Source: an uncultured Acidobacteriota bacterium (lineage in GTDB: Bacteria > Acidobacteriota > Vicinamibacteria > Vicinamibacterales > UBA2999). From it: a DNA stretch of 64,000 nucleotides. The stretch covers positions 30,902 through 94,901 of the forward strand of contig CAWHBF010000024.1 of assembly GCA_963827515.1 (NCBI GenBank), read 5' to 3'. The stretch's first letter is position 1. Every line of letters begins with the position of its first letter. Positions 20,284-41,034 of this stretch are shown in pieces. The notes under the pieces are model-generated. The model searched no databases. It had not been told where the DNA came from and worked only from the letters and a program-made list of their open reading frames with translations. A program made the position numbers and the translations under genes.

Positions 20284-23200
20284 ATGAAGCAAGTGATGAG
20301 GCGTGTCGGGATCGTGGCGTTGTTGCTCGCGATGAGCGGCGGATCCGCGTGGGCGCAGGCGACGGCTCAGATGAGCGGCACCGTGCGGGATGAAAGCGGC
20401 GCCGTGCTGCCGGGCGTGACGGTTACCGTGACGCAGACGGACACCGGCTTCACGCGAAGTGTCGTCACCGAAGGCGAAGGATCGTACGTGATGCCGAACC
20501 TCCCGACAGGACCGTACAGGTTGGAGGTGTCGCTGCAGGGGTTCCGGACGTACGTGCAGACCGGCATCGTGCTGCAGGTGGGCGCCGCTCCGACGATCAA
20601 CGCGGAGTTGGCCGTTGGAAATCTCGAGGAGTCGGTGACCGTGGACGCCGCAGCGCCGCTCGTGGACGTGCAGAGCGCCGGTATCTCCGAAGTCGTCGAC
20701 AACGATCGCATCGTGGAGCTGCCGCTTCAGGGGCGCCAGGTCACGAATCTCATCGTGCTCGCCGGTGCGGCGGTCAACACGGGTGACGTCAGCGGCCAGC
20801 GCAACCGTTCGGATTCCGTGGCGATTTCAGTGGCGGGCGGGCTTCGAACGGGTGTGGCCTACGTGCTGGACGGGGCGATGCACAACGACCCGTACGACAA
20901 CACGAACATGCCGTTCCCCTTCCCTGACGCTCTGCAGGAATTCTCGGTGGCGACGAGCGGGCTGTCGGCGCAGAACGGCATGCACTCCGGCGCGTCGGTC
21001 AATGCGGTCACCCGCTCGGGCACCAACGCCTTTCACGGCAACGGGTTCGAGTTCCTCCGCCATAGCGGGTTCAACGCCACCGACCCGTTCGCGCCCGTCG
21101 GGGCGGACGGCGACAGGGTAGACGATGGCCTCGTTCGCAATCAGTTTGGTGGGACGCTGGGTGGACCCATCATTCGAGACAAGCTCTTCTTCTTCGGCGG
21201 GTATCAGGGGACGATCACACGGCAGACGCCGGCGTCGTACGTCGCCTTCGTGCCGACGCCGGCGATGCTCGCCGGCGACTTCACGGGAATCGCGTCGCCG
21301 GCGTGCAACGCCGGCCGGCAGGTGCGCCTTGCGCGCCCCGTTCGTGAACAACCAGATCAATCCCGCCCAGTTCAGTCAGGCCGCGGTGAGTATTTCGAAG
21401 CACCTGCCGACGCCGGTCGATCAGTGCGGCGAGATCAGGTACAGCGTGCCGCTCGACAACAACGACAAGCAGTTCGTGGCCAGGGGCGACTATCAGATGA
21501 GCGCCAACCACTCGCTGTTTGCGCGGTATATCGACGCGTTCGAGAATCGACTGCCGACGTTGTCACGCACGGGCAACATCCTGACCGTGCGGCGTGAATT
21601 CGGCGCCAACAAGCAGGCGCGCGCGCAGGCCACGGCGTTCGGCGACACGCAGGTGTTCGGCGACAACACGGTCAACGGGTTCCGCGTGACCTGGAACCGC
21701 ACGTCCAACCACCTGAACGATCCGCCCGACGAGTTCTTCGATGCACAGGACCTCGGCATCAAGCTTTACTCGTACGTGCCGGGCGTGATCGGGCTGAACG
21801 TGACCAACGGGTTCACCGTCTCTGGCGGGAACTCGGTCAAGGTGCGGGTCGAGAGCCAGGCGTACCAGGTGGCGAACGACCTGTCGATCGTGCGTGGGCG
21901 GCACCAGCTGTCGTTCGGCGGCAACGCCTCGTACTGGGAAGTGGACAGCGAGGACAACGCTCGCGCCGCGGGGGACTTCAACTTCAACGGCCAGGCGACC
22001 GGCATCGGACTGGCCGACTTCCTGACCGGGCAGACGTCGCTCGTGCGGCACGGCGCGCCGGGCGTGCTGCTGAGTGACCAGTGGTACTTCGGTCTCTACG
22101 GTCAGGACAGCTGGCGGGCCACAGATCGCATCACGTTCAACGGTGGTGTGCGCTGGGAGCCCTTCTTCGGAGCGAACTCCAAGAATGGCGCGATCTCGAA
22201 TTTCGTGCTCGACAATTTCCGGCAGGGGATCACGACCCCACGGTTCATCAACGCGCCAGCCGGACTCATCTACCCTGGCGATCCGGGATTCCCTGACGGC
22301 ACCTCGGGTCTGAATGCCCAGTGGCGGAACTTCTCGCCCCGCGTGGGCGTGGCGTGGGACGTCGCCGGCGATGGACGGACCGCCGTTCGTTCCTCGTACG
22401 GGTTGAACTACGACTTCCCGAGTTCGGTGTTCCTCTACATCGCGGCGTCGGCATCCCCGTTCGCGAATCGCGTGGAGCTGAGCGGCGTGCCGTTCGAGGA
22501 TCCCTATCGCAACGTCGGCGGCGACACCCATCCGCTGGCGCCGGATCCCCCAGTCGACGCGCAGTATCCGCCGTTCGGCGCGTATGGTGTGATGGACCCG
22601 GACATCAATTCCACCCGCGTGCAGTCGTGGAATGTCACCCTCGAACGCCAGCTCGGCACGGTCATGGCAGGCCTCGGTCAGCTATCTCGGGAGCTACGCC
22701 GATCGCATGTGGGGTCAGGTGCACATCAATCCAGGCAACTTCATGGGTCTGGGCCCCTGCGTCATCCAGGGCGTTTCGTATCCGTCGTGCACGGTGACCG
22801 GCAACGTCGATCGCCGGCGAACGTTGTATCTCGAGAACCCGACGGAGGGGCAGTGGCTCGGCCCGGTCGTGGAGTATGCGGACGTCGGCGAGCAGTCGTA
22901 TCGCGGCCTGAAGCTGTCGTTCAGGCGCCGCGCCGACCAGGGGGTCAGCCTCAGCGGCAATTACACGCTCTCCCACTGCGAATCGGACACCGAAGTGAGC
23001 GGGAGTTTCAGCCAGTTTGCGAATGGCTACCTGGACCCGAACAACCCGTCGTTCGATCGCGGGAACTGCACGCAGAACAGGCGGCAGATCGGCAACCTTT
23101 CAGTGGGCGCACAGACGCCGGAGTTTGCCAACGCGGTGGTCCGCGCGCTGGCGTCGGACTGGAGATTCTCAGGGATCTTCAGCGCTCGTTCGGGGAGCTG

Positions 23201-23591
23201 GATCACCGTGACCACCGGTCGTGACATCGCCGGCACCGGCATCGCCGCTCAGCGCGTCAATCAGGTGCTCGACGACCCGTACGGCGACAAGAGCCTGAAC
23301 AACTTCCTGAATCCGGCGGCGTTCGCGTACCCGGCGGCGGGGACGCTGGGCGACCATCAAAACGCCAGCATCGAGGGGCCCGGGTTCTGGACCGTGGACC
23401 TGGCGGTATCCAGGCTCATTACGGTGGCATCTTCGCAGAGCCTGGAGTTGCGGATCGAGGCCTTCAACCTGCTCAACAACTTCAACTATGGCCTTCCGAA
23501 TGCAAACCTCGATGCGGGCACGTTCGGCCGGATCACCGCCCAGAGCGGCGAGATGCGGGTGATGCAGTTCGGGCTCAAGTACGGCTTTTAG
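20284..23591 (+). CDS. TonB-dependent receptor 2 (two frameshifts, near 21330 and 22660)
   Basis: Signal peptide + AQMSGTVRDESGAVLPGVTVTVTQTDTGFTRSVV..; ..[15 protein letters not shown]..; ..WQASVSYLGSYADRMWGQV..; ends ..MRVMQFGLKYGF. Paralogue of the receptors at 16929, 41035 and 45658. Confidence 0.85.
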
Positions 23592-23678
23592 AATGGACCT
23601 GCTGTACACTGCATGGCGCAATTGACGCAGGCGAGCAGTCTAGAGGTCCGTACGGGGCGACGCAGGGGAGCGAGCGAT

Positions 23679-24587
23679 ATGCATCAGGGGCGGCTCGGTT
23701 TGTCACAGTGGGGCCGTGTGCCCGTGCTGCTGTTACTCGTCATGTCAGTGAGTCAGCCGGCGTTCGCGCAAGTGGACATCTCGGGTCTCTGGCGTCCGTT
23801 GGCCCGCAACCAGGATGGGAGTGGGATGACGGGCGATTCGGCTGGCCTTCCCCTTAGTTCGGAGGGACAGTCTCGATCGCAGAGCTGGTCACCCGAAGAC
23901 TTCGACGTCGCCGAGTGGGTGTGCCGGCCACACTCATTTGACTACTCGCTCGAGGGGCCTCTCTCGGCGCTGCGTCTGTGGACGGAGCAGGATCGGCCCA
24001 CTCAGAAGATCGTCGCGTACCACGGGCACCTCAACATGATGGAGCAGGAAACCTCCATTTGGATGGATGGCCGCCCCCATCCTCCGGCGAATGCCCCGCA
24101 CACGTGGAGTGGTTTTTCGACTGGGGAGTGGGACGGCGACGTGCTGGTCGTCACGACGACCCACCTCAAGGAAGCGTACATGCGGCGGACGGGCGTGATG
24201 CGCAGCGATCGGGCGACGGTGCGCACGCGGTGGCGGCGCATGGGGAACTATCTGCAAGCGACTTCGATTCTGTACGACCCCGTCCACATGCTGGAACCGT
24301 ACGTGCGAAGCACGATGATGTGGGTCTACGACCCCGGTCTCGCCGAGGCGCCCTATCCGTGCGAGGAGGCCACCGAGACCGCCGTACCGCGGGGCAACAC
24401 ACCGCACTTTCTGCCGGGCCAGAGCCCGTTGCCCGGCCTGAATCCGAACTTGGCGGATCGCTTCGGCACGCCTCACGAAGCGCGGCTGGGCGGGCCCACC
24501 ACGATGTATCCTGAGTACATCGCGAAGATGAAAACCCTTCCCCGCCCGGCGACGGCGGCGGCTCCGGCTGGGGCCGCGGAGAACTAG
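23679..24587 (+). CDS. secreted hypothetical protein, distant relative of the HTEQLH family
   Basis: Signal peptide ..SQPAFA; VDISGLWRP..; ..IWMDGRPHPPANAPHTWSGFSTGEWDGDVLVVTTTHLK.. parallels FMDGRKHP..W.GHS.G.WEGDTLV.DT of the family. ATG 23679 has GGGGAG upstream. Confidence 0.7.
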   Translation: MHQGRLGLSQWGRVPVLLLLVMSVSQPAFAQVDISGLWRPLARNQDGSGMTGDSAGLPLSSEGQSRSQSWSPEDFDVAEWVCRPHSFDYSLEGPLSALRLWTEQDRPTQKIVAYHGHLNMMEQETSIWMDGRPHPPANAPHTWSGFSTGEWDGDVLVVTTTHLKEAYMRRTGVMRSDRATVRTRWRRMGNYLQATSILYDPVHMLEPYVRSTMMWVYDPGLAEAPYPCEEATETAVPRGNTPHFLPGQSPLPGLNPNLADRFGTPHEARLGGPTTMYPEYIAKMKTLPRPATAAAPAGAAEN

Positions 24588-25641: not shown

Positions 25642-25661
25642 GTTTGAAAGGAGACACTCTC

Positions 25662-26051
25662 ATGGTTCGTACTATCTTGCTGATCATCGCCGGCATCACC
25701 CTTCTGGCAGGGGGCGATCGGGTGTTCGCGCACCACTCGTTTTCGGCGACGTACGATTCGGCCAACAAGGTCGAAATCGAAGGGGTGGTGAAGGAGTTCG
25801 TCTGGCGCAATCCGCATTCGTTCATGAGGATTGACGTCACCGACAAGGCAGGAGAGGTCAAGACGTGGGCGTTGGAGTGGGGGTCGACGAACGACTTGAC
25901 GCAGGCGCAGATCACCCGCACGACGCTCAAGCCCGGCGACAAGATCATCGTGACCGGCGAGGCCGCACGCGATCAATCGTCGCTTCGACTGCTCATCGTG
26001 AGCGTGAATCGGCCGAGTGACGGATTCTCGTGGCGGGGAAGGGTCGAGTAA
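25662..26051 (+). CDS. DUF6152-like small secreted protein, copy 2
   Basis: ..GGDRVFA / HHSFSATYD..VEIEGVVKEFVWRNPH... AAAGGAG lies 8 nt before ATG 25662. Confidence 0.8.
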   Translation: MVRTILLIIAGITLLAGGDRVFAHHSFSATYDSANKVEIEGVVKEFVWRNPHSFMRIDVTDKAGEVKTWALEWGSTNDLTQAQITRTTLKPGDKIIVTGEAARDQSSLRLLIVSVNRPSDGFSWRGRVE

Positions 26052-26053
26052 GC

Positions 26054-26815
26054 ATGCGTTCTCTGTGGCTGCCGCTGTGTGCGGTTCTCCTCGTCGGCGT
26101 TCCCGGTACTGCTGACGCTCAAGGGCGTGGGCGTGCCGGCGGCGGGCCACCACAAACCGGACGTGCCGCTGCTCCCAGAGACCTGACCGGGACCTGGGTG
26201 TCGGTGGTCACGGAGCACTGGCACTTGCGGATGCTCGTGCCGCCGAAGGGCGAATTCGCGATGCTGCCGCTCAATCCCGAGGCCCGAACGCTCGCTGGGG
26301 CATGGGATCCGGCCAAGGAGCCAGCGGCCGAGGCGTGTCGTTCGTATGGCGCGGCAGCCATCATGCGTGTACCCGGACGTCTCCACATCCAGTGGGTGGA
26401 CGACAACACGCTGCAGATGGACATCGACTCGGGCACACAGACTCGGATGCTGCGGTTTGGTGCGATGCCGCCGGCCAATCAGCCGCTCGAATGGCAGGGC
26501 TACTCGGTGGCGAACTGGGAAGCGCTGGGCGCGCGCGGCCGCGGCGCCATGCCCACGCAGCTCAGGGTCAGGACGAGCCGGATGCGGCCGGGTTACTTGC
26601 GCAAGAATGGCGTGCCCTATAGTGAGAACGCCACGCTCGAGGAGTACTACGATCGATTCACTGAACCAAACGGCGACGACTGGCTGGTGGTGACCAGCAT
26701 CGTGACCGATGCGAAATATCTGACTCAGCCGTACGTGACGACGAACCATTTCAGGAAGATTCCGGACAAACAGGGATGGGATCCGACGCCGTGTCGGGCC
26801 GACCAGGCCCGCTGA
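26054..26815 (+). CDS. secreted hypothetical protein (second distant relative of the HTEQLH family)
   Basis: Signal peptide MRSLWLPLCAVLLVGVPGTADA; RDLTGTWVSV.. (same D-[IL]-[ST]-G-x-W motif); C-terminal ..DDWLVVTSIVTDAKYLTQPYVTT.. parallels ..NYLQATSILYDPVHMLEPYVRST.. of the 23679 protein. Confidence 0.65.
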   Translation: MRSLWLPLCAVLLVGVPGTADAQGRGRAGGGPPQTGRAAAPRDLTGTWVSVVTEHWHLRMLVPPKGEFAMLPLNPEARTLAGAWDPAKEPAAEACRSYGAAAIMRVPGRLHIQWVDDNTLQMDIDSGTQTRMLRFGAMPPANQPLEWQGYSVANWEALGARGRGAMPTQLRVRTSRMRPGYLRKNGVPYSENATLEEYYDRFTEPNGDDWLVVTSIVTDAKYLTQPYVTTNHFRKIPDKQGWDPTPCRADQAR

Positions 26816-28092: not shown

Positions 28093-28569
28093 ATGATGGA
28101 CGTGTTCACCTGGCTGGAAGGCAGCTCTCTATCGGTGTGGGTTCGCGAAGCGCCGACCATCTGGGCGTTTGCGACGATCATCACGCTGCACACGTTCGGG
28201 ATGGGAGTGCTCGTCGGTGCGTGCGCCGTGCTCGATCTTCGTCTTCTCGGTGTCGCCCGGAGCATTCCGATCGGGCCGCTGAGTACGCTCTATCGCGTGA
28301 TGTGGTTCGGTTTCTGGCTCAATCTCGTCACCGGCTCGCTGCTGTTTGCCGCTGATGCCACGTCCAGGGGCACGCAGTGGCTCTTCTTCGTCAAGATGTT
28401 CTTCGTGGTCACCGGCGTGGTGACGACGATGCAAATCAGGCGACACGTCTTCGATGGAAACGCAGAACCCATCGTGGTGAGTGCGCCGGTGAAGCGGCTG
28501 GCTCTCCTGTCGTTGGCGGCATGGGTGCTCGCGACGACGTCCGGCCGGCTCCTCGCGTACGTTCAGTAA
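28093..28569 (+). CDS. integral membrane protein (about 4 TM)
   Basis: 158 aa, hydrophobic segments IWAFATIITLHTFGMGVLVGACAVL, YRVMWFGFWLNLVTGSLLFA, FFVKMFFVVTGVVTTMQI, LALLSLAAWVLATTSG. Confidence 0.65.
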   Translation: MMDVFTWLEGSSLSVWVREAPTIWAFATIITLHTFGMGVLVGACAVLDLRLLGVARSIPIGPLSTLYRVMWFGFWLNLVTGSLLFAADATSRGTQWLFFVKMFFVVTGVVTTMQIRRHVFDGNAEPIVVSAPVKRLALLSLAAWVLATTSGRLLAYVQ

Positions 28570-28587: not shown

Positions 28588-29526
28588 ATGCTGCCCCAGG
28601 AGATCACGCACCTTCACCTCCTTCTCAATCACGTGCCCACCATCGGGACCGTCGTGGGCCTCGGCGTGTTCGTGATGTCGTTCGTGCGGCGGAGCGACCA
28701 TCTGAAGCACGTGAGCCTCGAGGTGCTGTATCTGATCGCCCTCGCGACGCTCCCGGCGTACATCAGCGGACTGGCTGCCCAGGCGATGATCGTCGGTCGC
28801 CCGGACATCTCCTCCGAGGCGATTGTCGCGCACCACGATGGCGCGCTCGTCGCGTTCACCTTCATCGAGATCATGGGATTCGTCGCGTGGCTCGGGCTGT
28901 GGCAGTACCGCAGGTTGGAGCGGATGGCTGCCTGGATCTCGCCGGCCATTCTGGTGCTGGGATTCCTCACCCTGGTCTTCGTCAGCAGCGCGGCCACGAT
29001 CGGCGGAGAGATTCGACACCCCGAGATCAAACTCGACGAGGCGGCGGTCGCGGCGGGCGGATGGTTCCCTGCGGAAGGGGTAGAACAGTTCGTGACCACC
29101 AATCCGTGGGTGTGGCCGACGGCCGAGGCCCTGCATTTTCTCGGGCTGTCGCTCCTGTTCGGCGTGCTGTTCACGGTGAACCTGCGGTTGATGGGTGGCC
29201 TTCGAGGCGCGTCCTTCGCGGCCTTGCACCGTCTGTTGCCGTGGGCCATGCTCGGCTTCGGCGTGAACCTCGTGACCGGCATGTTGTTCGTCATCGCGGC
29301 TGCCGACCAGTACATCGAGAACACCCCGTTCATCTGGAAGATCGCGTTCCTGATGGTGGCAGGTGCCAACCTGCTGTACCTGACCGTGTATGACCGGATC
29401 TGGGAGTTGAAAGCTGGCCAGGAACCGGTGCTCCTCGATCGCGCTGTCGCGGTGTCGGCGGTCGTGGTCTGGATGGGGGTCATTTACGCGGGCCGCATGC
29501 TGCCCTTCCTGGGGAACGCCTTCTAA
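28588..29526 (+). CDS. polytopic membrane protein (DUF2231-like N-half, C-half resembling the preceding protein)
   Basis: 312 aa; HLHLLLNHVPTIGTVVGLGVFV..; ..GGEIRHPEI..; C-half ..HFLGLSLLFGVLFTVNLRLMG..FGVNLVTGMLFV..KIAFLMVAGANLLY.. is similar to 28093..28569. Confidence 0.65.
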   Translation: MLPQEITHLHLLLNHVPTIGTVVGLGVFVMSFVRRSDHLKHVSLEVLYLIALATLPAYISGLAAQAMIVGRPDISSEAIVAHHDGALVAFTFIEIMGFVAWLGLWQYRRLERMAAWISPAILVLGFLTLVFVSSAATIGGEIRHPEIKLDEAAVAAGGWFPAEGVEQFVTTNPWVWPTAEALHFLGLSLLFGVLFTVNLRLMGGLRGASFAALHRLLPWAMLGFGVNLVTGMLFVIAAADQYIENTPFIWKIAFLMVAGANLLYLTVYDRIWELKAGQEPVLLDRAVAVSAVVVWMGVIYAGRMLPFLGNAF

Positions 29527-29802: not shown

Positions 29803-30192
29803 ATGAGAATGAAGCGTGGAGTTCTGATCGCTGGCCTCGGTCTTTTCTGTCTGTCGGCGCCCCTCGCCGCCCATCACTCGTGGACAGCCGACTACGACGG
29901 CGGCAAGCCGGTCACCGTCAAGGGCGTGGTGACGAAGGTCGAATGGACCAACCCCCACACCCACTTCTACGTCGAGGCCAAGGACGAGAAGGGGACGGTC
30001 ACGATGTGGAACTTCGAGATGGCGAGCACGCTGTCGCTGGAACGCGGAGGCTGGACCCGGAAGACGCTTCCCGTTGGTGCGGAAGTCACGGTCGGAGGTT
30101 TTGGCGGCAGGGCCGTGCTCACCAGGGCCATCGCGGGTTCCATTACCACTGCCGACGGCAAGGCGCTGTTCGTCGGGAAACCGGGTCAATAG
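29803..30192 (+). CDS. DUF6152-like small secreted protein, copy 3
   Basis: MRMKRGVLIAGLGLFCLSAPLAA / HHSWTADYD..VTVKGVVTKVEWTNPH... AGGAGG precedes ATG 29803. Confidence 0.85.
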   Translation: MRMKRGVLIAGLGLFCLSAPLAAHHSWTADYDGGKPVTVKGVVTKVEWTNPHTHFYVEAKDEKGTVTMWNFEMASTLSLERGGWTRKTLPVGAEVTVGGFGGRAVLTRAIAGSITTADGKALFVGKPGQ

Positions 30193-30244: not shown

Positions 30245-31045
30245 GTGAGAAGAGGGCTCGTCGTCTCGATCGCAGTCATATGTCTGACCGTGCCGTTCCT
30301 CGCCGCATCGCAGGAGCTCGGTCGTCGTATCGGAGGCGCCAACGGGCCGCCTGCGGCCCCGCCGACGCCCGACAAACCGGCCCCGCGTCTTACCGACGGC
30401 AAGATAGATCTATCAGGTGTATGGACCGACGGCGGCGGGCAGACGATTGACCGCCTGTTGAAGCCGGGCGAGTTGGACACCATTCTGCTACCGAACACCA
30501 AGAAGCTGATGGAATCGCGGAACGACGGACAGGATCCCTACAACTACTGCCTGCCTGGCGGGCCGCTGCGGATCACCGGGGGCTTTGCCTGGCGGTTCAT
30601 TCAGCACCCGACGACCAACGCCACGCACATTTTCATGTTGCAGGAAGGGAACGCCCACACCTACCGCCAGATTTTCATGGACGGTCGCAAGCACCCCGAA
30701 GATCCGAGTCCGACGTGGTACGGTCATTCCATCGGCCGATGGGAAGGCGACACGCTTGTGATTGACACCATCGGTCTCAACACCAAGTTCTGGCTCGACG
30801 GGAGCGGCATCCAGCATACCGAACAGCTACACATGGTCGAGCGATGGACTCGAACGAACTACACGACGCTCCGCCGCGATGTGACGTTCGAGGATCCGGG
30901 CGCGTTCACCAAGCCGTTCACCGTGACCTACACCGCGAGGCTCTCGGAGCCTGGCAGCGAGATCATGGAATACATCTGCATCGAGAACAATCAGTATGGG
31001 CTCGCACAGGGTCACGGAGATCCGAGCGTCGTCGCCCCGAAGTAA
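30245..31045 (+). CDS. HTEQLH-family secreted protein, copy 1 (uncharacterised family)
   Basis: GTG start after GGAGGAGG; signal peptide; APRLTDGKIDLSGVW; CLPGGPLR; NAHTYRQIFMDGRKHPEDPSPTWYGHSIGRWEGDTLVIDTIG; QHTEQLHMVERWTR; DPGAFTKP; MEYICIENN. Confidence 0.8.
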   Translation: MRRGLVVSIAVICLTVPFLAASQELGRRIGGANGPPAAPPTPDKPAPRLTDGKIDLSGVWTDGGGQTIDRLLKPGELDTILLPNTKKLMESRNDGQDPYNYCLPGGPLRITGGFAWRFIQHPTTNATHIFMLQEGNAHTYRQIFMDGRKHPEDPSPTWYGHSIGRWEGDTLVIDTIGLNTKFWLDGSGIQHTEQLHMVERWTRTNYTTLRRDVTFEDPGAFTKPFTVTYTARLSEPGSEIMEYICIENNQYGLAQGHGDPSVVAPK

Positions 31046-31212
31046 TCGATTGTGCAGCTGGTAATCGCAGGCCGGGTGCGCGTCGAGCGTCCCGGCTTGC
31101 GCCGTTTTTGCGGTCCCGCGGCGGGCATCGTAACGGCGGGATCTGCGGGTGCGGTTTGGGTTAAAGTATCAACGGCGGGTCAGGCTGCGGCGCAGCCTAA
31201 AGGAGGGATCGC

Positions 31213-32043
31213 GTGCGTAGATTTCTTGTCGTGTCCGTGTTCGCGGCGGGACTTGCCCTGGCTGCGTTCGGGCATCTGCAGGCGCAAGGCGGCGTCGGCC
31301 AGATTCAGGTCGGTGGCAGCCCGGTTGTTCCAGACTCCGAAGTCACGAGCAAACCGGTTCCTCGCCTGCCCGACGGCACCGTGGATATCACCGGCCCCTG
31401 GGTGGGTGGCGGCTCGAATGGCAATATCGAGCGCGATGGCGGGTTGAAGCCAGGTGAGCTGCCGCTGCTGCCGTGGGCCAAGGAGCTGATGTCCAAGCGT
31501 CTCGAGAAGGACGAGCCCTATACAGCCTGCTTGCCGATGAGCGTGCCCCGCGTGAACCCATATCCGTGGAAGTTCGCGCTCTCCTACACCTCGAAGGGAC
31601 TCTCGCACATCTACGTGCTGCACGAGACGGGTGATGCGGGTGCTCATCGCGTGGTCTATATGGACGGACGGCCCCATCCGCCAGATCCGATCCCGACATG
31701 GTGGGGGCATTCGACCGGCAAGTTCGAAAAGGACACCCTGGTCATCGACACCGTCGGCTACAACGACAAGTTCTGGTTCGACAGCCGCGGAACGCCACAC
31801 ACGGAACAGCTGCACACGGTCGAGCGGTGGACGCGCATCAACTACGGACGAATCACCAATGACTTCCTCCTCGACGACCCGGGGGCATTTTCGAAGCCGG
31901 TCAATTTGAAGTTCACCGGCAGGCTGCTGCGGCCGGATCTGAAGACCGGAGGCGGTGACCTGATGGAGTTCATCTGTCTCGAAGGCAACGAGTATGGTGC
32001 GGCCGCCGGCTTCGTGCCTGGCCAGGGAACGGCCATCAAGTGA
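31213..32043 (+). CDS. HTEQLH-family secreted protein, copy 2
   Basis: VPRLPDGTVDITGPW; CLPMSVPR; VVYMDGRPHPPDPIPTWWGHSTGKFEKDTLVIDTVGYNDKFWFD; PHTEQLHTVERWTR; MEFICLEGN. Confidence 0.8.
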   Translation: MRRFLVVSVFAAGLALAAFGHLQAQGGVGQIQVGGSPVVPDSEVTSKPVPRLPDGTVDITGPWVGGGSNGNIERDGGLKPGELPLLPWAKELMSKRLEKDEPYTACLPMSVPRVNPYPWKFALSYTSKGLSHIYVLHETGDAGAHRVVYMDGRPHPPDPIPTWWGHSTGKFEKDTLVIDTVGYNDKFWFDSRGTPHTEQLHTVERWTRINYGRITNDFLLDDPGAFSKPVNLKFTGRLLRPDLKTGGGDLMEFICLEGNEYGAAAGFVPGQGTAIK

Positions 32044-32102: not shown

Positions 32103-32528
32103 ATGAGAACGAAACTTGGAATCCTGGCGGCGACGATTGGCCTCGTCTGCGTGGCGGTGCCGGCCATCGCGCATCACGGGTTCGATACGGAGTACGACGC
32201 GAAGAAGAAGTTCAAGCTGCAGGGCGTTGTGTCGCAGGTGCTGTGGACCAATCCCCACATGCGCGTCCACGTGGACGTGACCGATGCGGCCGGGAAGGTG
32301 ACGACCTACAACATGGAGATCACCAGTCCCAACTCGGTCCAGCGTCAGGGCTGGGGCCGCAACAGCCTCCTGCCGGGTGAGAAAGTCGTCTTCGAAGGGT
32401 ACGGCGGCAAGGTTGTCGAGAGCAGAGGTTCGCTGCTTTCGATCGCGAAGCTCGATGCGCCGGACAAGCCGCTCTTCGTCCAGGGCGGGCCTGAAGCCGC
32501 TGCCGAAGGCTTCCCCGGTCAGCGGTAG
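32103..32528 (+). CDS. DUF6152-like small secreted protein, copy 4
   Basis: MRTKLGILAATIGLVCVAVPAIA / HHGFDTEYD..FKLQGVVSQVLWTNPH... Confidence 0.85.
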   Translation: MRTKLGILAATIGLVCVAVPAIAHHGFDTEYDAKKKFKLQGVVSQVLWTNPHMRVHVDVTDAAGKVTTYNMEITSPNSVQRQGWGRNSLLPGEKVVFEGYGGKVVESRGSLLSIAKLDAPDKPLFVQGGPEAAAEGFPGQR

Positions 32529-35989: not shown

Positions 35990-36379
35990 ATGAGAACGAA
36001 GCTTTCGGTGCTGCTGGCCGGCGTTGCCTTGGTGGGTCTGACGATGCCGGTCGTGGCACATCATGCCGTGGGCGCCGAGTACGACGAAGCCAAGGTCGTC
36101 AAACTGACAGGTGTCGTATCGAAGGTGGAATGGACCAATCCCCATGCGCGCATCTACTTCGACGTCACCCAGCCGGACGGGACCAAGGTCACCTGGAACG
36201 TGGAACTGACCGCGAGAAGCGCACTGGTCAGACAGGGGTGGACGGCCAACTCCCTGAAGATCGGCGAAACGGTGACGGTCGAGGGCAGCTTGGCGAGGTC
36301 GGGCGTGAGCGGGGTCAACGCCAGAAACGTCCTGAACGCCGACGGCAAGAGAGTGTACGGCGGCGACAACGTCCAGTAG
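35990..36379 (+). CDS. DUF6152-like small secreted protein, copy 5
   Basis: MRTKLSVLLAGVALVGLTMPVVA / HHAVGAEYD..VKLTGVVSKVEWTNPH... GGAGGA precedes the ATG. Confidence 0.85.
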   Translation: MRTKLSVLLAGVALVGLTMPVVAHHAVGAEYDEAKVVKLTGVVSKVEWTNPHARIYFDVTQPDGTKVTWNVELTARSALVRQGWTANSLKIGETVTVEGSLARSGVSGVNARNVLNADGKRVYGGDNVQ

Positions 36380-36423: not shown

Positions 36424-37248
36424 GTGAGAAAGCTACTCCTCGCCTCTGCGATGACCGCGGCGCTCCTCCCGCTGCTGGTGCAGTCGGCGTCGACGCAGGC
36501 CGGTCCTGAAGCAGGAAAGGTCGCGGCCGAGCGGCGAGCCGGACCGGAGAAGGGCCCGATCCCCAGGCATCCTGATGGGTCCGTGAACCTGATGGACGGG
36601 GTGTGGGTCGGCGGCGGACCTGTCCAGGACCTGGAGGCGCAGGGCGGTTTGAAGCCGGGCGAACTCGACGCCCTGATGCTGCCATGGGCAAAGGCCCTGA
36701 TGGCCACACGGGATGAAACCCAGGAACCGCACAACGCTTGCCTGCCGATGGGCGTTCCGCGTGTGACACCGTTCCCGTATCGGTTCGTACAGAACTACAC
36801 CCACAAGCCCGCCACGCACATGTTCATCCTCCACGAGGGGAACATCCATACGTACCGGCAGATATTCATGGATGGACGCAAGCACCCGGCGGAGCTTGAT
36901 TCGAGCTGGCTCGGGCATTCGATCGGTCACTGGGAGAAGGACACGCTCGTCATCGACACGGTCGGCTACAACGACAAGTTCTGGTTTGACCGCCGCGGCC
37001 ATCCGCATACAGAGCAGTTGCACACAATCGAGCGGTGGACCCGGCTGAATCTCGGGCAGATGGAGAACAAGTTCACCCTCGATGACCCGGGCGCGTATTC
37101 GAAGCCGATTACGATGACCTTCATGGCGACGAAGATGCCGCCCCAGGACGAGCTTCTGGAATACATCTGCCAGGAGAACAATCAGTACGGCGCAGCAACG
37201 ATCCCTGGCTACAGCGGCCCGAAGATGGGGAACCAGCCACAGAAGTAA
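36424..37248 (+). CDS. HTEQLH-family secreted protein, copy 3
   Basis: GTG 36424 after CAGGAGAAGG; IPRHPDGSVNLMDGVW; CLPMGVPR; NIHTYRQIFMDGRKHPAELDSSWLGHSIGHWEKDTLVIDTVGYNDKFWFD; PHTEQLHTIERWTR; LEYICQENNQYG. The 443-aa ORF start at 35917 is an artefact overlapping copy 5. Confidence 0.8.
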   Translation: MRKLLLASAMTAALLPLLVQSASTQAGPEAGKVAAERRAGPEKGPIPRHPDGSVNLMDGVWVGGGPVQDLEAQGGLKPGELDALMLPWAKALMATRDETQEPHNACLPMGVPRVTPFPYRFVQNYTHKPATHMFILHEGNIHTYRQIFMDGRKHPAELDSSWLGHSIGHWEKDTLVIDTVGYNDKFWFDRRGHPHTEQLHTIERWTRLNLGQMENKFTLDDPGAYSKPITMTFMATKMPPQDELLEYICQENNQYGAATIPGYSGPKMGNQPQK

Positions 37249-37597
37249 GCATCAAGACGTGGAGCTTGGGACTGGGACCCCTTGGTCCGCGAGTCCGGTA
37301 GCCGGGATGGCTGCCATAACTTACTGCCAAGATTTCCCCCAGTGTGGGCGGGTTTTTTCGGCCTCGGCGTGAACTGAATTCAACCATCCGTAGCATTCCC
37401 GGACGAACGGATGGATTCTTCGCCGAATTGAGGGGGTGCCTCTCGGACAATCGGCGTGTAAGTCCGCGGCACAGTTCTGGCTACACATTCTGGGTTTTTA
37501 GGTACAATGAGCGGCTATTTGAATTCCATTCCCGCCTCGGGTCGGGAGATGTTCATCCGCCTTGATGGGCGGGTGTCATCACAAGGAGGCTCTTAAG

Positions 37598-40563
37598 ATG
37601 ACGCGTGTTATGCGATTCCTTTTTCTCGCGTGCGGCCTTTTGGCGGTGCCAGCTGCGGTGTTCGCGCAGGAAGCGGTGCTCACCGGCACTGTGACCGATT
37701 CTACCGGCGGCGTGCTGCCGGGTGTCACCGTCGTGGCGGTGAACGACGCGACCGGAAACCGATACGAAGCCGTGACGGACGAGGGCGGTATCTATCGGAT
37801 CCCAGTGCGCGTTGGCGCCTTCACGATTACGGCGGAACTCTCTGGTTTCGCGACGGCGAACCGTACCGGCGTGCAACTACTGGTTGGCCAGACCGCCAAC
37901 GTGAATTTGCAATTGGCTCCTTCGACTGTTCAGGAGACCGTCACCGTCACCGGCGAGGCGCCTCTCCTCAACGTGTCGACGTCGAGCCTTGGGGGCAACA
38001 TCGATCCGCAGCAGGTGGAGGAGTTGCCGGTGCAGGGTCGTAACTGGATGGGTCTGGCGCTGCTCGCCCCTGGAAGTCGTACGGTCTCGGGCAACGCTCA
38101 GGCGCCCCTTCCCGATCGCAACAACGGCGAGGTGCGCGAGTTCCAGCTCAACATGGACGGACAGCAGATTTCGTCCGAGCTCGGCACCGGCAACCAGCCG
38201 AAGTTCAGCCAGGACTCTATCGCGGAGTTCCAGTTCATCTCGAACCGGTTCGACGCCACGCAGGGGCGGTCGAGCGGTGTGCAGGTGAACGTGATCACGA
38301 AGTCGGGCACCAACTCGCTGTCCGGGTTGTTCCGCACGAATTTCCAGAGCGACGACGTTCAACGCCGAAGACCCTGTGGTGGGCCGCAAGCTGCCGATCA
38401 GCAACCAGCAGGTACAGCACGGCGCTCGGCGGACCGATTCTGCTCAACAAGCTGCACTACTATGGCAATTTCGAGTACGAGCGCGCGCCGCTGGCCAGCG
38501 TGTGGACGACGCCGTACCCCGCGTTCAACATCGAGCTCAACGGGAAGTTCTCGCGCAAGATTGCCGGCGCGCGCGATCGACTACCAGGAGTCACGAGCAA
38601 CACGCGCCTCATGGGCCGCGTCTCGGGATCGCAGAGCTACACCCCCTTCGGCGGCGGGTCGGCAACCGCGCACCCGGCGTCCACGATCGACACCGACGAC
38701 CGGAACCGTGAGTATCTTGGGATCGTTGACGCAGGTGCTGAGCAACCGGGCCGTGAACGAGATCAAGGGTGGATACTCCCACTACGGATTCGAAAACAAG
38801 ACCCTCGTGAATTGGTCGAAGCACTGGCAGGCCTCGAATGGGATCACGAACGGCTACCCGCGCATGACGTTCACCGGCTTCTCCTTCAATGCCAACGCGA
38901 ATGCTCCGCGTCATCGCGACCAGAAGGTCACGCAGATTCGAGATGACTTCACGTTCTCGTACGAGGCGCGCGGCCGTCACGACCTGCGGGCGGGCTTCGA
39001 GTTCGTCGATCACTACGAGGACAGCCTGAACTGCAACCAGTGCGGCGGGAACGATCGACGCACGCGGGACACCAGCTGGCCTGCCGCCCATTCCGACGCC
39101 GGCGCAGATGGAGGCGTGGTTCCCGGATCCATGGAACGCGGACACCTGGAACTTTGCAGCGATCTCTCCCTGGATACGGACCTACACGATCGGCATCGGG
39201 GAGTTCCCGAACCAGTACCATCAGCCGAAGTACGGTGCCTGGGCGCAGGACGACTGGCGGATCACCGACAGTCTCACACTGAACCTCGGCCTGCGTTACG
39301 ACTTGAGCCAGAACTCGTTTGCGAACGACCTCGGGCTCGAGTACAAGGCCGGTCAGCCACCCTTCTATGCGCCGGGCCGACCGAACGACACCAACAACAT
39401 CCAGCCGCGCCTCGGGTTTGCCTATTCGCTGAACGACCGCACGGTGATCCGCGGGGGATCTGGGCTCTACTATTCCGACGCGCTGACGGTCGATGCGTTC
39501 TGGCCCAAGTACAACACCCAGCTGCTGCGAGACTGCAGTACACCAACGACGGCCGGGCGAACTTCGGTGCGGATCCGCTCAACGGCGCACCGTTGCCGAC
39601 CTACGATCAGGCGCAGACGCAGCTGTGCAACTCGGCGGCGCAGGCGGCGAACTTCGCCGCGTGGCGCGCGAGCCAACTTCGCCGGCACGGCGCCCTGCAT
39701 CCTCAACGCGCTCCAGGAGATGCCGGGGCCGGATGAATACATGGTGATGGCGCAGAGCTGGAACTCGTCCATCGGCGTTCAGCGGCAGTTCGGCTAAGGT
39801 GATGTCGCGTCGAGGTGGACTACATCTACACCAAGGGCACGGACGAGAAGGACACGATCCCCAACGTGAACCTGGCGTACGACCCGGCGACAGGGGTGAA
39901 TTATCCGTTCAACAACGCCAACCGAGCTCGGCTGCCCTGGCCGGATATGGGCGTCGTCTCGATGATTCCGCACAACACGCGCTCTGGACTGCGGTCGCTG
40001 CAGACGGCCTTCTCGCAAGCGCATGAGCAGCCGGTGGCAGGCATCGGCGACCTATACGCTCTCGTGGCTCTATAGCGCCGAGAACCAGCCGTTCCAGGGT
40101 CTGGACATCGTGCCGTTCGAGGTGGCACCAGACCTGGGCAACGAATACACCCTCGCGGGTGACGATCAGCGTCACCGCGCGGTGTTCAACGGCATCTGGG
40201 AGGTCGGCAAAGGCTTCCAGCTGAGCGGCCTCCACTACTTCGGCGCCGGGATTCGTGCGGCGAACGAGTACGGAGGCGACCTGCGCGTGCTGGGTGCGAC
40301 CGGATCGGCGCGGCTGCGTCCGAACGGCAGCCTCGTCGAGCGCAACAGCTACGTCCAGCCGTTCCAGAACAAGACGGACATCCGAGCGCAGCAGCGGGTG
40401 CCGCTCGGTGGGCGTGCGGGCATCGACCTCATCGCCGAAGTGTTCAACGTGTTCAATCGGCCGAACTTCATCGAGACGGTGCAGGAGAGTCAGCGCAAAC
40501 TACGGCAAGCCGGCGTCGGGTCAGTACCGCACGGCACAGCTCGGCTTCCGTCTGACCTTCTGA
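37598..40563 (+). pseudogene. TonB-dependent receptor 3 (different subtype from the other four), about 10 frameshifts
   Basis: Signal peptide + AVLTGTVTDSTGGVLPGVTVVAVNDATGNRYEAVTDEGGIYRIP..(CarboxypepD_reg); ..VEELPVQGRNWMGL.. (plug). Barrel segments are spread over three frames. Ends ..AEVFNVFNRPNF.. / ..YRTAQLGFRLTF. Confidence 0.75.
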
Positions 40564-40569
40564 TCGATA

Positions 40570-40632
40570 CCCGGCAGGTAACGGCCTGCCGGGTGTCCGA
40601 CTCTACTGCGCGGGGGCGTGAGCGCCCCCGCG
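40570..40632 (+). terminator. two consecutive GC-rich hairpins after receptor 3
   Basis: cccggcagg-taacgg-cctgccggg (40570-40593, 9-bp stem) and cgcgggggcg-tgag-cgcccccgcg (40609-40632, 10-bp stem). No clear U-tract. Confidence 0.5.
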
Positions 40633-40709
40633 TCGTCGCCACGTTCACTCCTCTTTCCTTGACCACGGACCGTCGCGGCTGACGGTCGATAGACGACCCC
40701 CTTTGGGCG

Positions 40710-40803: not shown

Positions 40804-40959
40804 CTAGACCGCTTTTCGATTCGGCGTAGCTGAGTGCGGAGGCTTCCGCCTTCGCGTAAAGCTTCGGCGGACCGCCGTAGCCTTGGCGGAGGCGGTTAGC
40901 CTCCGCGGACACGCGCACGCTGAAGCGTGCGCTCTACGGAGAAACGCAAATCGCTCTCT
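40804..40959. repeat. REP/MITE-like nested-palindrome element, copy B (long form)
   Basis: CTAG at both tips. Imperfect terminal inverted repeats: ctagaccgcttttcgattcggcgtag versus the reverse complement of the right end, ctagagcgatttgcgtttctccgtag. Internal hairpins gcggaggcttccgcc.., gcgcacgctgaagcgtgcgc. Confidence 0.8.
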
Positions 40960-41034
40960 AGCGTTCCCTACGCGCGAGAGCACTGGCGCACTGTTCGAAT
41001 CGTTCCTGGGCTGACCATATGCGAGGAGGATGGA

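What the first reader, a model, noticed from the sequence alone, without database searches (positions are those of the whole stretch)
30245..32043. 'HTEQLH' family: strongly conserved, uncharacterised secreted proteins with two invariant cysteines, here as a tandem pair
Six close paralogues share an ordered set of motifs:
- P-R-[LH]-x-[DNS]-G-x-[VIP]-[DN]-[LIF]-x-[GD]-x-W just after the signal peptide.
- C-[LM]-P-x-[GSV]-x-P-R.
- N-[IA]-H-[TS]-[YF]-R-Q-I-F-[ML]-D-G-R-[KP]-H-P.
- W-x-G-H-S-x-G-x-[WF]-E-[GK]-D-T-[LI]-V-[IV]-D-T-[VI]-G.
- H-T-[ET]-Q-L-H-x-[VI]-E-R-[WF]-T-R.
- D-D-P-G-[AS]-[FY]-[ST]-K-P.
- E-[YF]-I-C-x-[ED]-[NG]-N.

The two cysteines are conserved in all six, consistent with a periplasmic disulfide. 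Many His, Asp and Glu residues are invariant.

Four copies use GTG starts, three of them in a shared cGTGAGAA context (gtaacGTGAGAAA at 36424 and 50622; cttacGTGAGAAG at 30245; the GTG at 31213 sits in a different context), so even the translation-initiation region is paralogous. I cannot match the family to any named domain.
Basis: seen in the sequence. Interest (0 to 1): 0.7.

Follow-up and report, generated by a model that had tools for sequence, protein, structure and literature searches.

The report
Unnamed secreted beta-barrel family partnering DUF6152
The two genes belong to a very large, unnamed family of exported, probably disulfide-stapled beta-barrel proteins that almost certainly work with a small histidine-tipped partner protein (DUF6152), outer-membrane TonB-dependent receptors and DUF6644 membrane proteins in a cell-envelope system nobody has studied.

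Summary
30245-31045 and 31213-32043 are intact genes for exported proteins of about 240 mature residues, and they have paralogues in the window. I count five close copies and three distant ones, not six close ones. One close copy (50622) is frame-broken.

No Pfam, NCBIfam or PDB sequence match exists, and every public name is "hypothetical protein". The family is nevertheless huge: 17,426 clusters at 50% identity, mostly Acidobacteriota, plus cultured Sphingomonadales and Sinorhizobium mexicanum.

AlphaFold2 (pLDDT 80.5) predicts an eight-stranded antiparallel barrel that resembles calycins only weakly (Foldseek E about 1e-2). Both cysteines are 99% conserved.

The "tandem pair" is really DUF6152-HTE-HTE-DUF6152. 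HTE is my label for the family, from its H-T-E-Q-L-H motif. Every close copy in the window has its own DUF6152 partner, an OB-fold protein with an invariant mature N-terminal His-His. The modules recur with TonB-dependent receptors and DUF6644 inner-membrane proteins across phyla.

Best reading, at moderate confidence: HTE is a periplasmic binding or hand-over component of an uncharacterised envelope uptake system, possibly for a metal. The function is inferred, not shown.

The parts
30245..31045 (+). HTE-A: exported HTE-family protein, 266 aa, GTG start
   Evidence: The ORF and its SD sequence are.
31213..32043 (+). HTE-B: exported HTE-family protein, 276 aa, GTG start. This is the protein that was modelled.
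   Evidence: The AF2 model has pLDDT 80.5 and pTM 0.75, with eight strands between residues 119 and 239.
29803..30192 (+). DUF6152 partner d2 of HTE-A. The probable ATG start is 29803; the ORF opens at 29725.
   Evidence: Pfam PF19649 matches at E 1e-24. An AGGAGG SD sequence lies before 29803.
32103..32528 (+). DUF6152 partner d3 of HTE-B. The probable ATG start is 32103; the ORF opens at 32040.
   Evidence: Pfam PF19649 matches at E 4e-26. A GGAGG SD sequence lies before 32103, and the start peptide MRTKL is shared with two other copies.
28093..28569 (+). DUF6644 four-helix inner-membrane protein, directly upstream on the same strand
   Evidence: Pfam PF20349 matches at E 7e-7. The same family sits next to HTE/DUF6152 in 6 of 7 alphaproteobacterial loci.
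28588..29526 (+). Double-length membrane protein whose C-terminal half is DUF6644/DUF2214-like
   Evidence: Pfam matches are.
36424..37209 (+). HTE-C, preceded by its DUF6152 partner d6 at 35990-36379
35990..36379 (+). DUF6152 d6
48987..49400 (+). DUF6152 d5. Its stop overlaps the ATG of HTE-D by 4 nt.
   Evidence: Pfam E 5e-29.
49397..50128 (+). HTE-D, 243 aa, ATG start
50155..50568 (+). DUF6152 d8, with two apparent frame breaks
50622..51385 (+). HTE-E. The signal peptide and the mature part are in different frames, and one inserted base at 50705-50710 restores the ORF.
44387..44794 (+). DUF6152 d4
   Evidence: Pfam E 3e-17
44813..45643 (+). HTE-F, a distant paralogue at 27-35% identity to the close copies
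23613..24587 (+). HTE-G, a distant paralogue. A metallo-beta-lactamase-fold gene separates it from DUF6152 d1.
25644..26051 (+). DUF6152 d1
   Evidence: Pfam E 5e-26
26030..26815 (+). HTE-H, a very distant family member that keeps both cysteines
   Evidence: The profile hit has E 2e-8 in the window-only search. The cysteines are at 103 and 255.
16432..16836 (+). DUF6152 d7, followed directly by a TonB-dependent-receptor-like gene
40927..44358 (+). Intact TonB-dependent-receptor-like outer-membrane protein (CarboxypepD_reg + OMP_b-brl_4), directly upstream of d4 and HTE-F
   Evidence: Pfam E 2e-179
45658..48970 (+). TonB-dependent-receptor-like gene split into two ORFs, directly upstream of d5 and HTE-D
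37562..40682 (+). TonB-dependent-receptor-like gene in several frame-broken pieces, directly downstream of HTE-C
16833..23591 (+). Two further TonB-dependent-receptor-like genes, both frame-broken, lying between d7 and HTE-G

Best explanation
**What it is**
- HTE-A and HTE-B are functional genes for Sec-exported proteins of a very large, unnamed family.
- Predicted: each protein folds into an eight-stranded antiparallel (calycin-like) beta-barrel. A conserved N-terminal arm wraps the barrel.
- Inferred: the two near-invariant cysteines staple a C-terminal tail to that arm.
- Inferred from strand order: the conserved loop motifs DGRxHP, PHTExLH and DDPG lie at one end of the barrel and form a single functional site.

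**What it works with**
- Shown by gene order, co-duplication and a rare fusion: HTE works 1:1 with a DUF6152 protein.
- DUF6152 is an exported OB-fold protein whose mature N-terminus is an invariant His-His.
- Shown by recurrence across phyla: the pair belongs to a wider envelope system. This comprises a TonB-dependent outer-membrane receptor, HTE plus DUF6152 in the periplasm, and one or two DUF6644 four-helix inner-membrane proteins.

**How it probably works (inferred, not shown)**
- HTE is a periplasmic binding or hand-over component. It receives cargo that entered through the receptor and passes it, together with DUF6152, towards the DUF6644 membrane proteins.
- The cargo is most plausibly a transition-metal ion or metal chelate.
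- The many paralogous modules would serve different receptors.
For: **Real genes and a real family**
- Paralogues and homologues are strongly significant, and the family has 17,426 clusters at 50% identity.
- The two cysteines are 99% conserved. R146, D151, R153, S167, E204, R205, R208, D222 and E252 are 90-98% conserved.

**Export**
- The N-terminus is a hydrophobic helix ending in an AxA-like site.

**Fold**
- The AF2 model has pLDDT 80.5 and eight strands.
- The only Foldseek matches are calycin-type barrels: SAHS/FABP-like proteins, streptavidin, Tp0751 and nitrophorin.

**Partnership with DUF6152**
- The window holds 8 HTE and 8 DUF6152 genes, in seven adjacent pairs.
- In 80 genome loci, 69 of 112 HTE genes have a same-strand DUF6152 neighbour. 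The array types are 39 DH and 9 HD.
- Stop and start codons overlap at 49397-49400, and also in Novosphingobium humi and Sinorhizobium mexicanum.
- Paired paralogues co-diverge: r = 0.63, Mantel p = 0.005.
- One of 150 representatives is an HTE-DUF6152 fusion.
- All 9 plasmid records that carry HTE also carry DUF6152.

**DUF6152 as a metal binder**
- A|HH, D32 and NPH are invariant in 64 sequences. HH is also kept in the distant Paracoccus and S. meliloti copies.
- The fold is OB.
- A conserved N-terminal His after signal-peptide cleavage is an established predictor of metal binding. One example is the Ni-binding DUF4198, which sits next to TonB receptors (PMC12537917).

**Wider system**
- Receptor-DUF6152-HTE cassettes repeat in the window and in Vicinamibacterales loci.
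- A DUF6644 pair lies directly upstream of the finding and next to HTE/DUF6152 in 6 of 7 alphaproteobacterial loci. One of these is a one-strand DUF6152-HTE-DUF6644-DUF6644 operon in S. mexicanum.
- DUF6152+DUF6644 pairs without HTE occur in Paracoccus, S. meliloti, Azospirillum and Achromobacter.
- 18 of 150 representatives carry the same N-terminal CarboxypepD_reg domain as the receptors.
Against: **No direct evidence**
- There is no biochemical or genetic evidence for any step.
- The calycin resemblance is weak (best E 1.4e-2, TM <= 0.5).
- I had no model coordinates. The one-site claim and the disulfide therefore rest on strand order and conservation only, and the C-terminal tail that carries the second cysteine is modelled at pLDDT below 50.

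**Incomplete associations**
- About 40-50% of HTE genes in the genome loci have no adjacent DUF6152.
- Only 16 of 99 arrays have a same-strand receptor within 600 bp.
- DUF6644 lies within 6 kb in only 3 of 80 acidobacterial loci.

**Points against a metal cargo**
- Eight paralogous modules in 35 kb, and thousands of clusters, are unusual for a metal chaperone.
- HTE's histidines are lost in the distant paralogues.
- Other neighbours are heterogeneous: c-type cytochromes, PQQ dehydrogenases, metallo-beta-lactamase-fold proteins, LigB, hydrolases and sulfonate genes. They do not point to one cargo.
Confidence: 0.4

Rival explanations
1. The system is a periplasmic redox enzyme. DUF6152 carries a histidine-brace-type metal centre, for example copper, that oxidises a substrate held in the HTE barrel. 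Electrons come from co-located c-type cytochromes or PQQ dehydrogenases, or cross the membrane through DUF6644 proteins, whose single invariant transmembrane His could ligate a haem.
For: - The A|HH mature N-terminus and the NPH His of DUF6152 are invariant.
- HTE has a strongly conserved polar constellation that looks more like an active site than a variable binding pocket: R146, D151, R153, H155, S167, H196, H201, E204, R208 and D222.
- CytoC_RC+DUF6544 cytochromes occur in 7 of 80 loci and PQQ-dehydrogenase/cytochrome c fusions in another 7 of 80. They often sit on the same strand right next to the module. The window has examples at 34634-35857 and 26868-27941.
- DUF6644 has one invariant His in its first transmembrane helix and occurs as a tandem pair.
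Against: - Each redox neighbour occurs in fewer than 10% of loci.
- There is no fold similarity to any known oxidase.
- HTE's histidines are not family-wide.
- Neither the proximity of the DUF6152 histidines nor haem binding by DUF6644 could be tested here.
Confidence: 0.2
2. HTE is a carrier for small organic molecules, as classical calycins are. It ferries hydrophobic or aromatic nutrients that enter through TonB-dependent receptors, and paralogues are specialised for different substrates. DUF6152 would be an adaptor, not a metal site.
For: - The barrel is of the calycin type.
- The massive paralogy parallels that of the receptors.
- The neighbours include catabolic genes: LigB ring-cleavage dioxygenases in L064 and L086, Amidohydro_2, Abhydrolase_10 in L035 and L083, Zn-dependent and PQQ-dependent dehydrogenases, a Mo hydroxylase, MFS transporters and GntR/LysR/TetR regulators.
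Against: - The most conserved residues are charged or polar and are almost identical across paralogues. This argues against diversified hydrophobic pockets.
- It does not explain the invariant His-His N-terminus of the partner.
- It does not explain the DUF6152+DUF6644 pairs that exist without HTE.
Confidence: 0.2
3. The genes are decaying or non-functional repeats, or the similarity is an artefact of a repetitive or poorly assembled region.
For: - HTE-E, DUF6152 d8 and four of the five receptor genes in the window are frame-broken.
- A 99%-identical contig from another assembly is also full of fragmented genes.
Against: - A and B are intact, have SD sequences and show coding-type GC3.
- The paralogues are only 45-71% identical yet keep the same residues.
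- Thousands of homologues keep the motifs.
- One inserted base repairs E, which fits long-read indel error.
Confidence: 0.02

Closest known systems
Calycin superfamily barrels (avidin/streptavidin, FABP-like SAHS proteins, bacterial lipocalin-like Tp0751, nitrophorins)
   Same: HTE shares the eight antiparallel strands in consecutive hairpins, the small single-domain size and the exported location. The conserved loops appear to gather at one barrel end, which is where calycins bind ligands.
   Different: - HTE has no sequence relationship to these families.
- Foldseek reaches only E about 1e-2, with TM <= 0.5.
- HTE adds a conserved N-terminal arm of about 70 residues and a Cys-linked C-terminal tail.
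- The conserved site is charged, not hydrophobic.
Exported N-terminal-histidine metal binders that partner with membrane transporters: CopC-CopD, YcnI-YcnJ, DUF4198 beside TonB receptors, and 'anglerase'-HupE/UreJ (PMC12537917, PMC8424229)
   Same: The partner DUF6152 has an invariant His directly after the signal-peptide cleavage site. It sits next to a small polytopic membrane protein (DUF6644) and often next to a TonB-dependent receptor.
   Different: - DUF6152 is an OB fold, not a cupredoxin-like or beta-sandwich fold.
- DUF6644 gives no CopD hit in Pfam at E <= 1.
- None of the known systems has an HTE-like third component.
- Metal binding is untested here.
ZinT/YodA, a periplasmic calycin-like zinc-binding protein with a His-rich N-terminus.
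   Same: Both are periplasmic proteins with a calycin-like barrel and a cluster of His residues, and ZinT acts as an accessory to a metal-uptake route.
   Different: - There is no sequence match to any PDB chain, including ZinT.
- ZinT is not among the top 50 Foldseek hits.
- In the HTE system, the N-terminal His motif lies on a separate protein.
SusC/SusD-type receptor-plus-accessory cassettes of Bacteroidota
   Same: In both, repeated cassettes pair a receptor that carries an N-terminal CarboxypepD_reg domain with non-enzymatic accessory proteins, and the cassettes are amplified many times per genome.
   Different: - There is no SusD-like TPR lipoprotein.
- The HTE and DUF6152 signal peptides have no lipobox-like cysteine (read by eye), so they are soluble exported proteins and not surface lipoproteins.
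- Only 16 of 99 HTE arrays abut a receptor.

Membership tests
Calycin / lipocalin-like superfamily | Eight-stranded antiparallel up-and-down beta-barrel | tested here: met
   DSSP on the AF2 model gives strands at 119-126, 129-137, 145-149, 166-172, 175-181, 201-210, 213-221 and 230-239. pLDDT is mostly above 90 in this region. This is a prediction, not an experimental structure.
Calycin / lipocalin-like superfamily | Significant structural superposition on solved calycins | tested here: inconclusive
   The best Foldseek hits in the PDB are all calycin-type barrels, but only at E 1.4e-2 to 1e-1 and TM 0.4-0.5 on the target. None reaches E <= 1e-3.
Calycin / lipocalin-like superfamily | Sequence-profile match to a lipocalin, avidin or FABP family | tested here: not met
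   Pfam gave no hit at E <= 1 for A and B. None of 150 representatives hit over the core. hhalign against the fused DUF3471 domain gave probability 0.8%.
Pfam DUF6152 (PF19649), tested on the neighbouring genes and not on HTE itself | Score above the Pfam gathering threshold of 27 bits | tested here: met
   Five copies scored 62.9-100.7 bits. A further three (35990, 16432, 50155) were found only with a local profile. HTE itself gives no DUF6152 hit.
Histidine-brace or N-terminal-His metalloproteins, tested on the DUF6152 partner | His as the first residue of the mature protein after signal-peptide cleavage, conserved across the family | tested here: met
   A|HH is invariant in 64 sequences, with canonical -3/-1 residues. 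It is also present in the Paracoccus, S. meliloti and N. humi copies.
Histidine-brace or N-terminal-His metalloproteins, tested on the DUF6152 partner | A second His positioned to complete the brace, and measurable metal binding | not testable with these tools
   The NPH histidine is invariant among the 64 aligned sequences (PPHP in the distant Paracoccus and S. meliloti copies).
SusC/SusD-like polysaccharide utilisation cassette | A SusD-family TPR lipoprotein encoded next to the receptor | tested here: not met
   No SusD-type Pfam hit was found in any gene next to the receptors in the window.
CopC-CopD copper-uptake pair | The membrane partner belongs to the CopD family | tested here: not met
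   The DUF6644 proteins hit only PF20349 and PF09980 at E <= 1, with no CopD match. There is no PDB relative.

The most novel reading that the evidence does not exclude
HTE, DUF6152 and DUF6644 together form a previously unrecognised class of envelope machinery. An OB-fold protein with an N-terminal His-His metal site and a disulfide-stapled calycin-like barrel form a periplasmic heterodimer. This heterodimer either relays a metal or metallophore from TonB-dependent receptors to a new type of inner-membrane permease, or acts as a new histidine-brace oxidative enzyme. Acidobacteriota, a dominant soil phylum, would have amplified it into dozens of cassettes per genome as a main route of nutrient acquisition.
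Probability: 0.25. Interest if true: 0.75.

Novelty: new variant of a known kind. Interest (0 to 1): 0.5.

Why it matters
- Acidobacteriota are among the most abundant soil bacteria, and their many TonB-dependent receptors have no known accessory proteins.
- A family with more than 17,000 sequence clusters has no name, no model in Pfam or NCBIfam and no structure.
- It is tied to DUF6152 and, less uniformly, to DUF6644, two other uncharacterised families that are not mentioned in any paper of the searched library. This marks a sizeable blind spot in envelope biology.
- The system also occurs in cultured bacteria: Novosphingobium humi, Novosphingobium sp. PP1Y and Sinorhizobium mexicanum. The HTE-less core pair occurs in Paracoccus denitrificans PD1222 and S. 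meliloti. The hypotheses are therefore directly testable.
- If DUF6152 proves to be a new N-terminal-His metal site on an OB fold, that would also extend the known range of histidine-brace-like proteins.

Tried and rejected
**Searches that found nothing**
- Pfam and NCBIfam scans of all paralogues gave no hits on the HTE core.
- A Pfam scan of 150 diverse representatives hit only fusion partners.
- Sequence searches of the PDB with a single protein and with two profiles gave nothing credible.
- The intact receptor and DUF6644 also have no PDB relatives.
- Full-text searches for DUF6152 and DUF6644 returned no papers. DUF2214 returned two papers, and I did not open either because their titles suggest generic DUF surveys.
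- A paper on lanthanide systems in Acidobacteria did not treat these genes.

**Comparisons that were negative**
- hhalign of HTE against the DUF3471 domain fused to some members, and against DUF6152, showed no relationship.

**Context analyses that were not informative**
- Clustering all neighbours in 80 loci for a third universally conserved gene found none in more than 9 of 80 loci.
- A sulfur-scavenging link was considered. tauD and sulfonate genes lie beside the Sphingobium locus, and cysDH lies beside the S. meliloti pair. The link does not recur elsewhere, so I dropped it.
- LLM monooxygenases are not shared with the other Sphingomonadales loci.

**Other dead ends and one correction**
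- An exact look-up of HTE-D found no contig on record.
- I first took the GTG at 32040, which overlaps the HTE-B stop, as the DUF6152 start. The SD sequence and the conserved MRTKL start place it at 32103, so I withdrew that overlap claim.
- The terminator-like and promoter-like matches in 29.4-32.7 kb are no more frequent than in shuffles.
Full report
**Naming.** I call the window's copies A-H and the DUF6152 genes d1-d8.

**1. The observation**

The window is about 64% G+C. Both ORFs are present on the + strand at the stated coordinates, and both have coding-type third-position G+C.

The GTG starts at 30245 and 31213 each sit 6-8 nt downstream of a Shine-Dalgarno sequence.

tblastn with either protein finds these other copies:

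| Copy | Coordinates | Relation to the close copies |
|---|---|---|
| C | 36424-37209 | close |
| D | 49397-50128 | close |
| E | about 50622-51385 | close |
| F | 44813-45643 | distant, about 26-35% identity |
| G | 23613-24587 | distant, about 26-35% identity |

The close copies match at E 1e-58 to 1e-83 and are 50-71% identical in the mature part. A family profile adds an eighth, very distant member, H, at 26030-26815 (E 2e-8 in the window-only search). H keeps both cysteines.

Copy F matches only the first.

The 9-mer ACGTGAGAA occurs exactly three times in the window, always at an HTE start, against 0.6 expected. This is what recent duplication predicts. C and E, which share the longer context, are the closest pair at 71% identity.

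One correction concerns copy E. The GTG at 50622 opens only a signal peptide that ends in a stop, and the mature part is in another frame. A single inserted base at 50705-50710 restores a complete ORF.

**2. The family outside the window**

A word-indexed search returned more than 4,300 homologues. All are named "hypothetical protein" where a name exists.

An exhaustive profile search of 1.84 billion cluster representatives gave these counts:

| E-value cut-off | Clusters at 50% identity |
|---|---|
| <= 1e-3 | 17,426 |
| <= 1e-10 | 9,971 |
| <= 1e-30 | 1,438 |

Among GTDB species representatives, at least 596 stretches encode a relative. Of the best 80, 72 are labelled Acidobacteriota (Vicinamibacterales, Bryobacterales, Terriglobia). 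The rest carry Gammaproteobacteria, Pseudomonadales or improbable labels.

tblastn against plasmids also finds the family in cultured Novosphingobium, Sphingobium, Croceibacterium and Sinorhizobium mexicanum.

No named domain covers the family:
- Pfam gave no hit at E <= 1 and NCBIfam none at E <= 0.1.
- None of 150 diverse representatives has a Pfam hit over the core.
- Three sequence or profile searches of the PDB found nothing credible.

Across 210 diverse members, conservation is as follows:

| Residues | Conservation |
|---|---|
| The two cysteines | 99% |
| D222 | 98% |
| S167 | 96% |
| E204 | 95% |
| R205, R208, E252 | 94% |
| R146 | 93% |
| D151 | 92% |
| R153 | 90% |
| H196 | 82% |
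| H155 | 80% |
| H201 | 74% |
| H166 | 69% |
| H132 | 41% |

The HTEQLH histidines therefore mark the main subfamily, not the whole family. Copies F, G and H lack most of them.

**3. Structure**

AlphaFold2 on a 60-sequence alignment gave mean pLDDT 80.5 and pTM 0.75. The model has these parts:
- an N-terminal helix, which is the signal peptide;
- a disordered linker;
- a well-predicted, mostly irregular arm (residues about 48-118), which contains the PRLxDGxxDLSGxW and CLPxGxPR motifs;
- eight antiparallel strands between residues 119 and 239;
- a poorly predicted C-terminal tail, which carries the second cysteine.

Three of the strand connections are two-residue hairpins, so the sheet is a meander. 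On that basis (inference), the long conserved loops all lie at the same end of the barrel:
- DGRxHP (151-156)
- GxND..W.D..G.PHTExLH (182-201)
- DDPGxxxKP (221-229)

This points to one functional site. I could not inspect coordinates. The site and the Cys106-Cys255 disulfide remain inferences.

Foldseek against the PDB returns only calycin-type barrels: FABP-like SAHS proteins, streptavidin, Tp0751, nitrophorin and OlmO. All are weak, at E 1.4e-2 to 1e-1 and TM <= 0.5. The fold is calycin-like, but membership is not established.

**4. The "tandem pair" is two modules**

The genes flanking A and B are DUF6152 (PF19649, E 1e-24 and 4e-26). With corrected starts at 29803 and 32103, the order is d2-A-B-d3.

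A local profile finds eight DUF6152 genes in the window. The adjacent pairs are d2-A, B-d3, d6-C, d4-F, d5-D, d8-E and d1-H. The stop of d5 overlaps the start of D by 4 nt.

Pairwise identities of the HTE copies correlate with those of their DUF6152 partners (r = 0.63, Mantel p = 0.005). The modules therefore duplicated and diverged as units.

In 80 loci from other genomes:
- 69 of 112 evaluable HTE genes have a same-strand DUF6152 neighbour, 50 upstream and 22 downstream.
- The array types are 39 DH, 9 HD, about 14 longer mixed arrays and 50 solitary HTE genes.
- No other neighbour family occurs in more than 9 of 80 loci.

Fusions support the link and suggest oligomers:
- One of 150 representatives is an HTE-DUF6152 fusion.
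- About ten are double-HTE proteins.
- 18 carry an N-terminal CarboxypepD_reg domain.
- 9 carry a C-terminal DUF3471 domain.

**5. The partner, DUF6152**

DUF6152 is a confidently predicted OB fold (pLDDT 88.4; Foldseek to SSB and LysRS OB domains at E about 4e-4).

In 64 sequences the signal peptide ends in an invariant Ala followed by an invariant His-His. An Asp eight residues later, a Trp and an N-P-H motif are also invariant.

The His-His start is kept in distant copies from Paracoccus, S. meliloti and N. humi.

A conserved His at the first mature position is an established marker of metal chelation. A systematic search built on that idea found the Ni-binding DUF4198, encoded beside TonB receptors, and "anglerase" domains that feed metal permeases (PMC12537917). 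That paper does not treat DUF6152. Metal binding by DUF6152 is therefore my inference.

**6. The wider system**

The whole stretch from 16.4 to 51.4 kb is on one strand. It interleaves the HTE/DUF6152 modules with five TonB-dependent-receptor-like genes (CarboxypepD_reg + OMP_b-brl_4). One is intact, at 40927-44358.

Receptor-DUF6152-HTE cassettes also repeat in related Vicinamibacterales loci. Over all loci, however, only 16 of 99 arrays abut a receptor.

Directly upstream of d2-A-B-d3 lie two membrane-protein genes of family DUF6644 (28093-28569 and 28588-29526).

The same association appears in Alphaproteobacteria. In all 7 loci fetched, HTE is adjacent to DUF6152. Six of the seven have a tandem DUF6644 pair nearby, and five have a TonB-dependent receptor. 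Examples:

| Organism | Gene order |
|---|---|
| S. mexicanum | DUF6152-HTE-DUF6644-DUF6644, one strand |
| Sphingobium sp. TomTYG65 | HTE-DUF6152-HTE-DUF6152, back to back with DUF6644-DUF6644-receptor |
| Croceibacterium atlanticum | DUF6152-DUF6152-HTE-receptor |

DUF6644 proteins have an invariant His near residue 33, in what I read as the first of four hydrophobic, probably transmembrane, segments. They also have invariant Arg, Lys, Trp and Gly-Arg positions.

DUF6152+DUF6644 pairs without any HTE occur in Paracoccus denitrificans PD1222, S. meliloti, Azospirillum and Achromobacter.

All nine HTE-bearing plasmid records also carry DUF6152.

The picture is a core of DUF6152 plus DUF6644. 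HTE and often a receptor are added to this core in Acidobacteriota and Sphingomonadales.

In acidobacterial loci, DUF6644 is rarely within 6 kb (3 of 80). This may mean that many modules share one membrane component, but I could not test that.

**7. Mechanism**

What is shown:
- export signals (read from sequence);
- conserved cysteines;
- a conserved polar constellation;
- gene pairing;
- co-duplication;
- fusions;
- cross-phylum recurrence with receptors and DUF6644.

What is inferred:
- that the partners make physical contact;
- that the conserved motifs form a single site at one barrel end;
- that the two cysteines form a disulfide;
- that DUF6152 binds a metal through its N-terminus;
- that cargo moves from the receptor through the periplasm to the membrane.

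I favour a periplasmic binding or hand-over role for HTE in an uptake route, probably for a metal or metal chelate (confidence about 0.4).

The main rivals each score about 0.2:
- a periplasmic redox enzyme, with DUF6152 as a histidine-brace centre. Recurrent c-type cytochrome and PQQ-dehydrogenase neighbours support it, as does the enzyme-like invariance of HTE's polar residues;
- a classical calycin-style carrier of organic nutrients, supported by catabolic neighbours.

Weak extra evidence: H196 is His in 95% of DUF6152-paired HTE genes but in 69% of solitary ones. This is not corrected for phylogeny.

**8. Assembly quality**

Four of the five receptor genes, HTE-E and DUF6152 d8 are frame-broken. 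A 99%-identical contig from another assembly (ERZ25039555 contig_4134) is similarly fragmented. Indel errors, perhaps from long-read assembly, are the simplest explanation. A and B are unaffected.

**9. Novelty and verdict**

The family is unnamed and unstudied.
- Its fold is probably a variant of a known kind, the calycin-like barrel.
- Its system resembles known receptor-plus-periplasmic-binder and N-terminal-His/permease arrangements without belonging to any of them.
- The function is not established.

I rate interest at 0.5. The size of the family, its place in a dominant soil phylum and the existence of cultured hosts make it a worthwhile target. Uncharacterised exported families are common, though, and no surprising mechanism has been demonstrated.

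Noticed in passing
window 16833-23591, 37562-40682, 45658-48970, 50155-50730; L081: Four of the five TonB-dependent-receptor-like genes, DUF6152 d8 and HTE-E are split by frame breaks. One inserted base repairs HTE-E. A 99%-identical contig from another assembly (ERZ25039555 contig_4134) is also fragmented. This fits long-read indel errors better than pseudogenes.
   Followed up: partly
window 34634-35857 and 26868-27941; L001, L003, L006, L065, L070: c-type cytochrome genes (CytoC_RC plus DUF6544; Cytochrome_CBB3 plus DUF11) sit on the same strand next to HTE/DUF6152 modules. The CytoC_RC+DUF6544 type recurs in 7 of 80 loci.
   Followed up: partly
window 24589-25641; 9 of 80 genome loci: A metallo-beta-lactamase-fold gene is inserted between HTE-G and DUF6152 d1. 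The same family is the most frequent other neighbour of HTE genes elsewhere.
   Followed up: partly
L064:5456-5836, L074:5230-5715; C-termini of P0219 and P0222: A further small exported domain of about 110 aa (motif ...GxWxGxW...NWDGKxxxG...) is encoded next to HTE in some genomes and fused to the HTE C-terminus in others. It has no Pfam hit.
   Followed up: no
L089 (Paracoccus denitrificans PD1222 plasmid 1, 311088-311948) and L090 (S. meliloti): Model organisms carry a two-gene DUF6152+DUF6644/DUF2214 unit without HTE. It lies next to the paa/penicillin acylase genes in Paracoccus and to the cysDH/bet genes in S. meliloti. This offers an easy genetic entry point.
   Followed up: partly
window 29675-29703: The only sigma-70-like promoter match in 29.4-32.7 kb (TTGACA-17-TAGCAT, 10 of 12) lies just upstream of DUF6152 d2. 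The count is not above the shuffled expectation.
   Followed up: no
window 14793-16324 and 51407-52429: The supercluster is flanked by a DUF447 gene plus a GHMP-kinase gene on one side and by a LarA-like (lactate racemase family) gene on the other. No link to the HTE modules is evident.
   Followed up: no
window 32598-34597: Two exported-looking proteins of unknown function follow DUF6152 d3. The first is 160 aa with a weak MG2-like hit, and the second is 522 aa with no hit. L081 has called genes at the corresponding position, but I did not test whether they are equivalent.
   Followed up: no
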